Shown piece by piece: positions 6,433 to 46,850 of a DNA stretch of 64,000 nucleotides (position 1 is the first letter of the stretch; each line of letters opens with the position of its first letter). This DNA is from Lobosporangium transversale (lineage: Eukaryota): the NCBI RefSeq assembly GCF_002105155.1, contig NW_019028981.1:1364001-1428000 (forward strand). Reading direction: 5' to 3'. The position numbers and the translations under genes are program-made. The notes beneath the pieces are model-generated. The model was given only the letters and a program-made list of their open reading frames with translations, searched no databases and was not told the origin of the DNA.

Positions 6433-6588
6433 TATGGGCGTTGCACCCGATAACTAGGGGCCCCGGGGACTGTTAGAGACGCTCGATATTGGTTGATCGA
6501 CTCTGGTTTATTTGATGGCTGAAATAATATTCAAGGAAAAAGCTCAACTTAAATAAAAAAAATAAAAAAAATAAAAAAAATAAAAAAA

Positions 6589-6709
6589 GCTTGCGGCGGC
6601 TTAGTAGTCATAGTGATGTTGCTTTTTGATCTTTAGATGTCGGTCCTATCTCCCCTTGCAGTGCGATCCTCGTATCTCGGCGTTGTTGAAAGTTCATTCT
6701 TTCCAATAG
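6589..6709 (+). pseudogene. Degenerate fragment of 28S/LSU rRNA (peptidyl-transferase region)
   Basis: GCTTGCGGCGGCTTAGTAGTCATAGTGATGTTGCTTTTTGATCTTTAGATGTCGG-TCCTATC resembles the recalled eukaryotic LSU segment GCTTGTGGCAG..AAGCGTTCATAGCGAC.TTGCTTTTTGAT.CTTCGATGTCGGCTCTTCCTATC. Similarity fades after ~70 nt. Confidence 0.6.
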
Positions 6710-6779
6710 TACGACATTTCATTTAAATTCAAATGAAAGACTAATGTACAGCTTTCTACAATAATAAAGGCTCTTGCTT

Positions 6780-7047
6780 GTGATCTCTATCCATGGGAAC
6801 GGGAAGCTGTCAAGACAGTGTATCCAAAGGGCTCTGGATTTCCATCACTTCAGCTCAGATGGTCCTGAGAAATAGTAGGGGAAGTATTGCGCCAAAGGTG
6901 TCGGGGTCGATCCATGATAGTCGCTAGTGGAGCCAGAGCGTACTTCGCTCATCAATTGGCAGCAAGGATCTTACTCTACATTAAGGCCAATGGCTTGTGG
7001 AATCGACTGAAGGAGTGTTTCTAGCGTGGTGTGCCGCCAGAGGTATT

Positions 7048-7079
<32 letters not shown>

Positions 7080-7461
7080 AATTGAGCCCAATGAAACTTG
7101 ATTGCTCCTCGCAGGGATCGCTACGTGCATGGCAAATCAGCAAGCAGGGTCTGCAGGAGATACTGTGGCACTTACGCGCTCCATAAGCGACCACTCTAAG
7201 AGAACGACACTGAGGAACCCATTGACAAGGTGCAAGACAATGAGTTTGACCGCTATTTCCGGGTTTCCACGAAAAAACAAGATGGTTGGCCTCCTGGATC
7301 GGTGCAAAGCAGTCCTTCACTATACGCAAGCATGTCAACACTATTCCAGCAACCTCAGTCGCTTCCGAGCAGATGCTTAGCATATACTGTAATGTGGTCT
7401 TAACAAGAGGATAAGGCTTTCCACCCTTGTGCTCTGCAGCTATGCTATGATGAATCCTTGA
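6780..7461 (+). pseudogene. hAT transposase remnant (C-terminal dimerisation domain)
   Basis: Frameshifted fragments NEFDRYF (7239), IPATSVASEQMLS (7343-7381) and KRIRLS match the hATC pattern E.DRY..IPATS..SER.FS....R.RL. Multiple stops. Confidence 0.7.
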
Positions 7462-7504
7462 TTACAAGCAATAAAAATAATGTCAGGGTCTGGCACCTGA
7501 GGAG

Positions 7505-8220
7505 ATGGGAAATAGGATGGAGCAATGGTTTCGTCTCCTCGCATTGAGTTGCCTTTGGTATGTGCTTCCATAAACCCCAAAGCCGAGATGTCTTTTTATG
7601 TGATCGTAAGTTGCTCCTTGTTTATTATATCCTACAATTGTCACATCTTCTTTAAGTGGCTCGGGAGTACTGTTACTACATTTGGATAGAGAGGATGTAA
7701 TTTCTACTCTTACCGCAGCACGAACGGCCGTCTCCCGAAGAAAAAAAGTTGACGCATAAATGTCGTGAGGAGCCCCATTCAAAAGCCGCTGATCATGCTC
7801 AAACCCTCCTGGATGCCTTACAAGAACGGTTTGAAAAAAAGCTCAGAGTACAAAAGCGCCATTTTGTCAACATTAGCAAGAAGATAAATACTGCCTTCCA
7901 CTGGGAAACGGATTCTCGCTGGCTTTGCTAAGTACATGAGATCTAAAAATTGAAACGTTCAAGAATTCAAGAATGCCCTTATGAAGCTACTTTGCAATTA
8001 CTAGTGACTGTTTCCCTGGCGACATTATTGTATCGGCAGACAGCGACATGCTAGCATATAACGATATAATGACCAGCTGGCGGCCCATGTTTAGGTATAA
8101 AGGCTATATCTATCACGTCCCGACCATGTGAGGCCACTTGGGCATCTCAAGGGAACAGTTGACCGCGCTGTGAATTGTCTCGAAAAAAACTACAATTATA
8201 ACATCGCACAAATGGGGTTC
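7505..8220 (+). pseudogene. XPG/FEN1-like PIN (5' flap-type) nuclease domain remnant
   Basis: NG..EEKKLTH..R (DG..P.EK-like motif), ECPYEA(D)FAI at 7971, DIIVSADSDMLAY (DSD at 8039-8047) and an H3TH-like LGISREQLTAL*IVSK(ND)YNYNIAQMG. Disrupted by stops and frameshifts; the 5' boundary is uncertain. Confidence 0.75.
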
Positions 8221-8246
8221 ACCGCCTTCGGGGATGTCAACCAAAA

Positions 8247-8545
8247 AACATCAAGATTTTGGGCCTTAACTTCGGTCAAGCGTGTATAATTGGTGCCGGT
8301 GCTTTGTTGCCAAGTCATGGGAGCGCCAATGGCACAGCCACACAACCCAAGTTCTATAATCTGACTATCAAGCAAAAGGCGGTGTATCGCCAATCGTTTA
8401 CTCAAGATAGTGAATGGTCCAGTTGAGGCAAAAAGAAAAGAGGCCGACAAGGCTGTGGTTGCTGTAGGTCTGGGAAAGTTTTCTTCCAATACCAGGCTTT
8501 CTTCCTTACATGAGCCGCTCCAATTTTACTTCATTCAAATAGTAA

Positions 8546-8580
<35 letters not shown>

Positions 8581-8956
8581 GTTTTCTTACCTTATAGCCG
8601 ATATTAATACATCGACACTTCTTCTAGGCCAAATCCCTTGGATAGTGGGAGCGAATATTATACTTTTAAGAAGCGCCCGCCCGAGCTGCGAAGAATTTGT
8701 AGGACAAGTTGATATTCACCGGCTCTATTGTTCCAAGTGCAAGGCTTTTATGCACAGGGTTGTGATGACTAGCCACAACATAGCTAACGTCGTCCGCGGT
8801 CATCTAATACACCAGCAGCGACCCCTCTACCTTGAGCTGATAGACAAGGATAGAGCATATCCATGAATGAAAGACCATTGCTCAGTGTACGCCAAACGTC
8901 AAGCACCCTTCAAGGCTGAGGAGGAATCAAGGAGCCGTAAGAAAATCCACTTATAG
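8247..8956 (+). pseudogene. Fanzor/TnpB-like RuvC + zinc-finger nuclease remnant with a spliceosomal intron
   Basis: RuvC-I IKILGL(N)FGQ (8250-8279); VAVGLGKF..RLSSLHE..YFIQI | intron 8542-8627 (GTAAGT..TTCTAG) | AKSLG..VG..EYYTxKK(R)PSC (RuvC-II Glu at 8653); CSKC (8729-8740); MHR(V)VMTSHN (RuvC-III). A basic tail ends at TAG 8954-8956. Confidence 0.8.
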
Positions 8957-9060
8957 TTCTTAAATTAGTGAGTCTAAAAAATATGCGTATTAGCAAATAC
9001 GTTTAGACTAGGTCACAGTCACGCCTATGACGTATTTAAGAGAGGTTTGTGCTGTACTTC
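8957..9060 (+). ncRNA. Candidate omegaRNA scaffold (nested stem-loops) immediately 3' of the Fanzor-like ORF
   Basis: Exact complementary arms TCTTAAAT 8958-8965/9034-9041, AGTCTAAA 8971-8978/9002-9009, CGTATT 8986-8991/8996-9001 and GTCA 9018-9021/9028-9031. The position fits TnpB/Fanzor guide loci. Confidence 0.45.
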
Positions 9061-9084
9061 GCCAGCTAACTCGGTTTATTATTA

Positions 9085-10483
9085 TTACAGGAGGGTGTCT
9101 ACATTCATAGATGTATCGTTATCATCAACAGGAATAGGGGTGCCTACTTCAGACCTTGGCGGTAGTGTAGGCGAAGGTTGGTAGCCTATTCTAGGTGTCC
9201 CCGCTGGTGTAATACCTAAAGAGTCTGTTGAGTGAGTACGGTGGAGACCCATCCTGAAGGAACCTTCTTCTCCCGATTGTCCTATCGTCCCATTGGTAAG
9301 TGTATTCGTCGGTCCTAAAGCAGGACTTTGTGATCCAATGCTGCTATTACTGCCCTTGCCTGATCCACCCAAGGACAATGAGTGCTGCATTTCATTCACA
9401 ATAACAGATATCGTTGAGGCGGGTCTGGGTGTAGTTGTACCTCTAGTAGTGGCTCCATCACCCGCACCATTGCTGTGAGCACCATTACCACCTCCATCAC
9501 CTTCTACGTCCGCTGTGACATCTAAGCTTCCTTCTTCAGCATGTGCAAAACCATCCTCCTGTTGGTCCTCCTCCTCATCATCCTCCGGATGTGTCCTCTT
9601 CAAATAAAGTCTCCTCTGTTCTTCCTGTTGATCCTCTTCGATCGAATCATGAATATTCTGAAGACATGAAAATGCATCATAGAACTGTTTCTTCCTCAAC
9701 TCCATAACAAGCCCCTGTCGAACAGCTTCATCTTCTAACTCTTGGATCTCGGATTGTAGAGTAGCAATGCTCTCCTGATTAGATTGTCGACTAGGAAAGC
9801 GTGAAACCTCGGTCGCTAACTGATCATAGAGGATTTTGTTGGCACGTTCTTGCTTGGCTTCCTCAAGCTCTCTCGTCAAGACTTCGAGTTCTTTTTCTGA
9901 TCGTGCAATATTTTCTTCTGTCCGTTGTTGTGATTGTTCATAACTGAGTCGTTCCCGTTCTGCCATCTCTGCTACAAGCTGTGTCTTGGAGATTGAGAGC
10001 TCAAAGTAGGTTACTTCATGCAATAAACTCTGAAGTTCCCTTTCACTGTTTTTATAAAAGAAAAAAAAAAAAAAAGGTTTTTTTTGAGATTACGATGATA
10101 ATACAGAGCGAGTATGGTTGCAAAAGAACGTGTCTTTCTTTTATTTTTTTATTTTTGCTTCTTTACAATCAACATTATTACATTCTCTTACATGTCTTCA
10201 TTTGTACCAACAGACAAAGCTTGACACCATTTATGAAAGCGAGTTGTTAATATCCTAAGAGGCCTCTCATTGACGTTCAATCGCGCCCTGATTATATCTT
10301 TTCCATATATCAGCCAACAGTGAAGTAGGATTGTAAAAATAATGAATAATTGTACAGATCAGCCTATTGCCATTATACCGATATTTTTATCCATGAACAT
10401 GTCTCCCTTAAAGTGTATTTCGAAAGTGGAGGAAAAAATAATACACTAAAGATGGATGGACAAAACCTACCTTCGTGGTCCAT
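9085..10483 (-). CDS. THOC7: THO complex subunit 7 (Thoc7/Mft1 family), 3 exons
   Basis: Exon 1 MDHE (10483-10471), exon 2 DIIRARLNVNERPLRILTTRF, then a coiled-coil ORF with AKQERANKILYDQLA..PSR and LRKKQF. Confidence 0.85.
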
Positions 10484-46150: not shown

Positions 46151-46241
46151 CACATATGGACCATGGCTACGAGGATAATGATCTGGAAGTGCTACAAAGG
46201 ACGCACTATCCTCATTATCAGAGTAGCCATGGGACATATGT
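46151..46241. repeat. DIRS internal complementary region (ICR)
   Basis: 46151-46178 is the reverse complement of the left terminus 42253-42280. The remainder is the reverse complement of the right terminus up to 46428. Confidence 0.95.
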
Positions 46242-46850
46242 CCCTCCCACACCTCCCTTTTCTTTTCACTCGTTACTAGATAGAGAGTAGATCAGAGCGA
46301 ACGCTAGATTTTATTTATTTTATTTTTAGTTTTTTCTCGGTCAGAAGGAATAAAAAGAGGTCACACATATGTCCCATGGCTACTCTGATAATGAGGATAG
46401 TGCGTCCTTTGTAGCACTTCCAGATCATAACGTTGGCGATATACAATTAAAGGATATCTGTGGTGTAAGGGCCAACTGTAATCCGGTAAATGCATTGTCA
46501 ATCTTGCAAGTACATTGGAAGCTTAAAATTGCTCGCGCCGACGTGTAATATCTACTGATGGTACTGCCTACTCCACCCTGCAATACATGTTGAGTATTTT
46601 AGTAGCTCAGTATTACAATACTTTAGTATAAACTAGTCGATACAGCACCCTTATTTCCGTCCGCTTGCGAAATATTGTAGTGCTAAACTCTCACAGGTTT
46701 AGCGCAGTCCATGGAACAAGTAGATCTTTTGTGGCCGCGAGCGGACCCATAAGATGTTATCTTCATGGATACTATAATAAACGAGGAATAGATTGTGGTA
46801 GTTAATGACACTTTTATTACAGAGATGGGTTAATAATTCAAAATGGGTAT

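What the first reader, a model, noticed from the sequence alone, without database searches (positions are those of the whole stretch)
8957..9075. Nested stem-loop immediately after the Fanzor-like stop: omegaRNA scaffold candidate
Seen: four sets of exact complementary arms (8, 8, 6 and 4 bp) form a multibranch fold that begins within 2 nt of the inferred ancestral stop TAG (8954-8956). The earlier TGA at 8864 looks like a TGG-to-TGA mutation. The fold is followed by GGTTTGTGCTG|TA, which could be an element end. The pairing is intact although the ORF is heavily decayed. Inference: this is a scaffold followed by a flank-derived guide (~9055-9075), possibly still usable in trans.
Basis: partly seen in the sequence, partly recalled or inferred. 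Interest (0 to 1): 0.72.

Follow-up and report, generated by a model that had tools for sequence, protein, structure and literature searches.

The report
Damaged guide-RNA remnant of Fanzor transposon
This hairpin is a shortened, damaged copy of the likely guide-RNA scaffold of a dead fungal jumping gene, whose intact relatives pair a transposase with an RNA-guided-type DNA cutter that carries an extra flap-nuclease-like domain.

Summary
The four arms exist, and nested 8/8/6-bp arms exceed chance (0 of 1000 shuffles). A covariance model built only from 23 metagenome relatives finds 8966-9059 as the one clear hit in the window (E 6e-5), so this is the conserved RNA element at the right end of a Mortierellaceae Fanzor1 transposon. 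TGA-from-TGG and the ancestral TAG hold. Relatives fold as two hairpins: a covarying 7-bp SL1 on a lower stem, then a long SL2 whose 3' arm is the 26-bp right TIR. The outer 8-bp arm is not a family pairing. The element ends at 9059-9060, not 9054, so any guide starts near 9061. The window copy lacks about 20 nt of SL2, its pairing there is no longer self-specific, its gene has lost all three RuvC acidic residues and about 700 codons, and no left end remains. Use in trans is unsupported. The relatives matter more: three element families carry a MULE transposase plus a FEN1/XPG-Fanzor1 fusion with both catalytic sets conserved, and a (GTG)ACG motif sits 14-15 nt before 7 of 8 left ends.

The parts
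7728..8185 (+). Broken remnant of the N-terminal FEN1/XPG-like domain of the Fanzor gene (P0009 aa 82-230); the start of the gene is missing
   Evidence: tblastn; domain identity; paralog contigs match from 7726
8226..8538 (+). RuvC-I to RuvC-II remnant; aa 231-864 of P0009 are missing before it and aa 918-998 at about 8387; the RuvC-I aspartate position reads N (8268-8270)
   Evidence: paralog contigs run on with the missing coding sequence on both sides of 8387/8388
8542..8627 (+). GT-AG intron (inferred), at the place where relatives' reading frames also break
   Evidence: sequence; ORF ends in L007 and L018
8628..8956 (+). Last exon: stop and frameshift across the RuvC-II glutamate, zinc finger, RuvC-III aspartate position reads V, premature TGA 8864-8866, ancestral TAG 8954-8956
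8958..8965 (+).
8971..9009 (+). First hairpin: lower stem P1 (8971-8978/9002-9009) carrying SL1 (8985-8991/8996-9002, AGCA loop); intact
9010..9034 (+). Shortened 5' arm and cap of SL2, with the subterminal (A/G)TGACGTA motif at 9027-9034; SL1-to-motif distance 24 nt against 37-53 in 20 of 27 relatives
9035..9060 (+). Decayed right terminal inverted repeat (26 nt); in relatives it is the 3' arm of SL2; element end 9059 or 9060
9061..9080 (+). Flank that would be the guide; antisense to the 3' end of THOC7; no other site in the window matches its first 15 nt with fewer than 3 mismatches
9065..9087 (-). 3' end of the convergent host THOC7 gene: stop 9085-9087, AATAAA 9080-9075; a contig of probable RNA run X5 ends at 9065, outside the scaffold

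Best explanation
8966-9060 is a shortened, damaged copy of the conserved folded RNA element at the right end of a fungal Fanzor1 transposon, likely its omegaRNA (guide-RNA) scaffold, and this copy is probably no longer functional. Shown: intact relatives are TIR-bounded elements with a divergent MULE-type transposase gene and a ~1200-aa FEN1/XPG-Fanzor1 gene; between stop and right end they keep a covarying SL1 hairpin and a long SL2 hairpin that uses the TIR as its 3' arm; conservation stops at the TIR end. Inferred from SpuFz1/PpFz1: the RNA would be transcribed through the end into about 15 nt of flank, load into the Fanzor and guide cutting of the empty site, which would favour copying the element back by repair. 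Shown for this copy: gene dead, no left end found, SL1 intact, SL2 about 20 nt short. Inferred: it is a fossil; SL1 is no sign of ongoing selection.
For: CM from 23 relatives, window excluded, gives one clear hit in 64 kb: 29.2 bits, E 6e-5, next best E 0.29; it also hits 12 of 27 loci not used in training and none of the 3 viral loci among them. SL1 on an unfitted MAFFT alignment: 86.8% of cells paired, 4 of 7 pairs with two-sided changes, the G-C/A-U pair 14 vs 8; whole-structure score 0.267 vs 0.167 shuffled and at most 0.110 when slid. P1: own partners 3.91 vs swapped 3.48 bp, 38 of 5000 permutations (32 loci). SL2: own TIR ranks first or second of 27 in 19 of 27 loci; at least 15 of 26 TIR bases pair with the middle in 21 of 27; 7 of 9 relatives fold with z -3.1 or lower. 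Copies of one element with different flanks fix the end (L006-L009, L013-L018). Family folds like GtFz1, SpuFz1, PpFz1 and FEN1/EXO1 and is labelled FZ1 in Saito 2023 Supplementary Table 1. Known Fz1 omegaRNAs have a 7-bp SL1 followed by SL2 (PMC11423790) and include the TIR (PMC10711439). Damage: window SL2 duplex -13.1 vs -12.6 kcal/mol with foreign TIRs, rank 8 of 28, 24 of 200 shuffles as good.
Against: No RNA evidence for the scaffold in any family member. RNAalifold found no consensus structure on either alignment tried; the SL2 support comes from per-locus folding and partner-swap tests, which do not correct for relatedness. SL2 could also be a DNA hairpin or a by-product of an internal inverted copy of the TIR. 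Six of 27 relatives do not form SL2 in my folds (L021, L022, L041, L049, L058, L067). [quoted passage not shown]
Confidence: 0.8

Rival explanations
1. The shortened scaffold still works as a ghost-type omegaRNA, used in trans by an intact Fanzor elsewhere in the genome.
For: SL1 and P1 fully paired, including a C-G pair where most relatives have U-A; short SL2 possible; ghost omegaRNAs work for SpuFz1 (PMC10432273); at least 7 paralogous contigs at about 85% identity exist; probable RNA run X5 holds low-depth contigs across the remnant.
Against: TIR has decayed at conserved positions and SL2 is not self-specific; no left end; no second copy of this scaffold at 80% likeness was listed; some paralogs carry frame-changing indels that the other contigs lack (8838, 8845); no intact Fanzor shown; the only splice seen in X5 is an intron on the opposite strand (one contig, depth 2).
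Confidence: 0.1
2. The conserved hairpins are DNA-level signals of the MULE end (transposase binding, end folding) rather than a guide RNA.
For: GTGACGT is nearly invariant while its hairpin partner varies (pairs vary on one side only; partner-swap test 369 of 5000); a GTCAC/GTCAC-like motif lies at a similar depth in Mucorales MuDR ends (Bao and Jurka file 12).
Against: SL1 and SL2 occur at the right end only, next to the Fanzor stop; left ends carry only the TIR; G-U pairs and a UUCG loop are tolerated as in RNA; architecture matches solved Fz1 omegaRNAs. The motif itself probably is a DNA signal; this does not explain SL1.
Confidence: 0.07
3. Chance fold, or part of the THOC7 3' UTR.
For: Overall folding z-score is unremarkable; one 8-bp arm arises in 92 of 1000 shuffles.
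Against: Homology to 35 element ends; THOC7 has AATAAA at 9080-9075 and its X5 contig ends at 9065 (one contig, weak). Chance is the best reading only for the outer arm.
Confidence: 0.03

Closest known systems
SpuFz1 and PpFz1 omegaRNAs (Saito 2023 PMC10432273; Xu 2024 PMC11423790)
   Same: Lies between stop codon and right inverted repeat, 7-bp SL1 then one SL2, TIR inside the scaffold, variable flank after it; conserved motif only at the left flank (CA in Spu-1).
   Different: No Rfam match; relatives' scaffold is about 110-120 nt with a lower stem under SL1 and an SL2 of about 25-30 bp; the left-flank motif is 14-15 nt away from the end, not adjacent; the window copy is shortened.
MuDR-associated Fanzor1 elements ROr-4, PBl-3, MCi-4 of Mucorales (Bao and Jurka 2013, PMC3627910)
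   Same: Mucoromycota, TIR-bounded, 1165-1245-aa multi-exon Fanzor1, GTCAC-type motif near the end.
   Different: Those carry no transposase and have 31-42-bp TIRs and 9-bp TSDs; here three families (L006-8, L013/15/18, L041) hold a MULE/SWIM gene inside 26-bp TIRs, no TSD was seen, and the protein starts with a FEN1/XPG-like domain (the ROr-4, PBl-3, MCi-4 N-termini seen look unrelated by eye; not tested).
Ghost Spu-1 elements (PMC10432273)
   Same: omegaRNA-like end without a working Fanzor gene.
   Different: Ghosts are multi-copy, have both IRs and well-conserved scaffolds; this is a single decayed copy with gene debris and no left end.
FEN1/EXO1/XPG 5' nucleases
   Same: N-terminal ~280 aa of the relatives match by profile (E 8e-12 to Rad2) and fold; seven acidic positions are conserved wherever the alignment covers them, with 2 exceptions.
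   Different: Fused to a Fanzor1 inside a transposon; activity untested; broken in the window.

Membership tests
Fanzor1 omegaRNA scaffold | Lies between the Fanzor stop codon and the right TIR and includes the TIR | tested here: met
Fanzor1 omegaRNA scaffold | Conserved among homologous loci with an abrupt loss of conservation at the element end | tested here: met
   30 loci: 1.0 bit at the last base, at most 0.44 bit in the next 15; copies with different flanks
Fanzor1 omegaRNA scaffold | 7-bp SL1 with covariation | tested here: met
   window pairs 7 of 7
Fanzor1 omegaRNA scaffold | Terminal stem (SL2) before the guide | tested here: inconclusive
   met in 21 of 27 relatives; in the window short and not self-specific
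Fanzor1 omegaRNA scaffold | Expressed as a small RNA running about 15 nt into the flank | not testable with these tools
   only contigs were available
Fanzor1 omegaRNA scaffold | Binds Fanzor and guides TAM-dependent cleavage | not testable with these tools
   needs biochemistry
Fanzor1 protein (relatives) | RuvC D-E-D with the glutamate next to a C4 zinc finger | tested here: met
   D 37 of 37, E 36 of 37, D 37 of 37
Fanzor1 protein (relatives) | DPG motif at RuvC-I (Yoon 2023) | tested here: not met
   D-L 26, D-G 6, D-A 2, D-P 2, D-M 1 of 37; the family is still labelled FZ1 by Saito 2023 and listed as Fanzor hits by Yoon 2023
Fanzor1 protein (relatives) | TDG motif in WED and Fz1 fold | tested here: met
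   D in 28 of 37, N in 9; top five Foldseek hits are GtFz1 and SpuFz1
Active Fanzor1 (window copy) | Intact ORF and catalytic triad | tested here: not met
MuDR/MULE transposon | Terminal inverted repeats | tested here: met
   8 relatives with both ends; window has the right end only
MuDR/MULE transposon | MULE transposase with SWIM finger | tested here: inconclusive
   relatives: MULE E 6e-4 below the curated cut-off, SWIM above cut-off in 2 of 3 pieces, similar ORF in L041 by eye; none found in window 6433-7740
MuDR/MULE transposon | 9-bp target site duplication | tested here: inconclusive
   seen in 0 of 8 loci; left flanks are only 79-485 nt and may be joined to the wrong right flank by the assembler
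Ghost (omegaRNA-only) element | Both TIRs, no gene, many conserved copies | tested here: not met

The most novel reading that the evidence does not exclude
The relatives are autonomous MULE transposons with a two-nuclease Fanzor1: the RNA-guided RuvC cuts the empty site and the fused FEN1/XPG domain trims or resects the ends to drive homing, while a (GTG)ACG motif 14-15 nt before the left end acts as a spaced TAM that also fixes where and in which orientation the element inserts. The scaffold defined here supplies the missing RNA to test it.
Probability: 0.2. Interest if true: 0.8.

Novelty: new variant of a known kind. Interest (0 to 1): 0.5.

Why it matters
The window copy itself is a fossil and matters little. 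It leads to a large Fanzor1 family (363 representative proteins at E 1e-10 or better) whose proteins are already listed in supplementary tables but whose guide scaffold, element ends, own transposase, FEN1/XPG head and insertion-site motif I did not find described. With the scaffold and boundary defined, a natural RNA-guided nuclease carrying a 5' nuclease becomes directly testable, as does the question of how a Fanzor avoids cutting its own element when the transposase makes variable target duplications.

Tried and rejected
No whole genome is held. Rfam: no match at gathering level. Window search for a second copy or a left end: best PWM hit 25638 lies in a host coding exon, and 46185/46421 is a separate inverted repeat. 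RNAalifold gave no structure on A3 or A5; MAFFT could not align the SL2 5' arm. My automatic SL1 finder picks by pairing and is biased; 7 of 39 picks were wrong or degenerate and were dropped (L020, L023, L042, L060, L062, L069, L072). Arm-4 coordinates were off by one; only energies count. A 61-column tree did not place the window. Viral contigs gave nothing with A1 and 5 distant loci with A2. No RNA holder is on record; X5 has no contig over 8934-9064, which is no evidence. Left-flank 8-15-mers match no right flank, so no sign of TSD or of guide-directed insertion. The hAT-like piece at about 7200-7410 is not shared by listed paralog contigs and has no Pfam hit. VIA-align was busy. Not in print, as far as searched: Fanzor+Mortierella 0 papers; Fanzor+FEN1 3, TnpB+XPG 1, listings only, none on a natural fusion by title or abstract; searches showed nothing relevant among the rows listed; 'XPG' absent from the main texts of four Fanzor papers and the supplements of three; one scanned supplement of Saito 2023 and two files of Bao and Jurka could not be searched, and subscription journals and patents are not covered.

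Full report
Setting. The window is fungal; all named relatives of the broken gene are Mortierellaceae proteins. The finding lies between a gene remnant on + and the host THOC7 gene on -. No genome was held, so I used 80 metagenome loci (best 80 of 139 confirmed) and contigs of public runs.

The gene. Pieces at 7728-8185, 8226-8538 and 8628-8956 match the 1186-aa protein P0009; aa 231-864 and 918-998 are missing and all three RuvC acidic positions are lost. Paralogous contigs run on with the sequence missing at 8387/8388, so that deletion is private. The TGA at 8864-8866 reads TGG in all 5 other contigs of run X1 that cover it, and TAG 8954-8956 matches the end of P0009. A model of P0009 (mean pLDDT 81) hits GtFz1 and SpuFz1 first, then EXO1, PpFz1 and FEN1. 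In 37 aligned relatives the RuvC triad is D37/E36/D37 and the seven FEN-type acidic positions are conserved wherever covered, with 2 exceptions. The family has D-L-G, not D-P-G, in 26 of 37, but Saito 2023 labels members FZ1 and Yoon 2023 lists P0009 itself (supplement rows).

The observation. The arms are there and their nesting is beyond chance, but the whole stretch folds no better than shuffles. Only the first hairpin, 8968-9012, is unusually stable (z -3.58).

The family RNA. After the stop, relatives share a GTGTRY...RYACAC hairpin (SL1), a variable middle, a near-invariant GTGACGT(A/C), then 26 nt ending mostly in C. I reduced the 80 loci to 39 by dropping near-identical copies and loci without a usable 3' end; 27-32 of these entered each test. 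Conservation falls from 1.0 bit at the last base to at most 0.44 bit beyond (30 loci), and copies of one element diverge exactly there. The 26 nt are a TIR: 8 loci hold its inverted copy upstream. A CM from 23 relatives with SL1 as its only structure finds 8966-9059 as the single clear hit in the window and 12 of 27 untrained loci. SL1 covaries on an alignment not fitted to it. The lower stem P1 keeps pairing with wholly different letters in a subset (L006, L010, L028, L035, L036, L039, L048: 5-7 bp; 38 of 5000 permutations). Single-locus folds show a second long hairpin, SL2, whose 3' arm is the TIR (21 of 27); each middle prefers its own TIR (first or second of 27 in 19 of 27; 0 of 5000). 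Against this: RNAalifold returned no consensus, the swap tests ignore relatedness, and six loci do not form SL2. Two hairpins with a 7-bp SL1 and the TIR inside the scaffold is the architecture reported for SpuFz1 and PpFz1 (PMC11423790 section 5; PMC10711439 passages; PMC10432273 section 7).

The window copy. SL1 and P1 are intact. The stretch from SL1 to the motif is 24 nt against 37-53 in 20 of 27 relatives (one is 22, six are 61-106). Its duplex with the TIR is no better than with foreign TIRs (rank 8 of 28). The 4-bp arm is the worn cap of SL2 (probability 0.04-0.24). A 15-bp short SL2 can still close at 9059, so function is not excluded. The end is 9059 or 9060; the flank from 9061 is antisense to the THOC7 3' end, whose AATAAA is at 9080-9075 and whose X5 contig ends at 9065, so the hairpins are probably outside that UTR. 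No left end, TSD or transposase remnant was found upstream. At least 7 paralogous contigs at about 85% identity exist; none listed matches beyond 8968, and no intact copy is shown (tables were cut).

The intact elements. L006-L008 (7.46 kb), L013/L015/L018 (5.57 kb) and L041 carry a divergent MULE/SWIM-type gene inside the TIRs. MuDR-type Fanzor1 elements without a transposase are known from Mucorales (PMC3627910 passages and supplement rows). In 7 of 8 left junctions ACG ends 14-15 nt before the end (GTGACG in 4; L060 needs the end placed at 79; L018 is the exception), and no such motif is evident in right flanks. The same word lies 26 nt inside the right end. My reading: it is most likely a site bound by the transposase, whose N-terminus looks like a FAR1/WRKY-type finger (recalled, not tested); a spaced TAM is the bolder reading. 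TSDs could not be judged because flanks may be chimeric.

Mechanism. Shown: homology, boundary, covariation of SL1, element anatomy, decay. Inferred from SpuFz1: read-through RNA, loading into Fanzor, cutting of the empty site and repair-driven spread. Inferred with less support: end trimming by the FEN-like head. This copy is most likely a fossil (0.8); live use in trans 0.1.

Papers seen: PMC11423790 passages and section 5; PMC10432273 passages, section 7, supplement rows; PMC10711439 passages, supplement rows; PMC10530073 passages, supplement search without hits; PMC3627910 passages, supplement rows; bioRxiv 10.64898/2026.06.03.729735 passages; others as search listings only.

Verdict. Interest 0.5; new variant of a known kind.

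Noticed in passing
L006:170, L007:218, L008:210, L013:305, L015:304, L041:129, L060:79 (left ends): ACG, mostly GTGACG(T), ends 14-15 nt before the left end in 7 of 8 junctions; the same word lies 26 nt inside the right end. Oriented target choice or spaced TAM.
   Followed up: partly
L007:380-3200, L018:616-1470, L041:235-3000 (minus strand): MULE/SWIM-type transposase gene inside the TIRs, head to head with the FEN1/XPG-Fanzor1 gene.
   Followed up: partly
L018:1-486 and L007:7630-9146: Family members sit next to each other: one element begins 8 nt after another's right end; another transposase-bearing stretch (shared with L054) begins 18 nt after a right end.
   Followed up: no
L039, L049, L067, L069 right ends: Tandem duplication of the GTGACGT motif region inside the scaffold; L022, L049, L058, L067 have a much longer middle (92-106 nt) that does not form the usual SL2.
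   Followed up: no
window 46179-46427: About 250-bp element with perfect inverted arms of about 65 bp, MITE-like, not matched by the family model.
   Followed up: partly
window 7200-7411 (+): Fragment resembling a hAT transposase C-terminal motif (recalled; no Pfam hit), just upstream of the Fanzor remnant and not shared by listed paralog contigs.
   Followed up: partly
window 7455-7713: One low-depth contig of run X5 skips 257 nt with ends that read GT-AG on the minus strand: a possible spliced antisense transcript over the remnant's 5' side.
   Followed up: no
window 8892-8933, run X5 contig of 2487 nt: A high-depth contig (362) holds a 42-nt near-match to the Fanzor tail, perhaps a paralog remnant inside a host transcript.
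   Followed up: no
L027:6941-10664: Fanzor gene with scaffold but no transposase or left TIR, directly beside a host DNA-repair-like gene (by eye).
   Followed up: no
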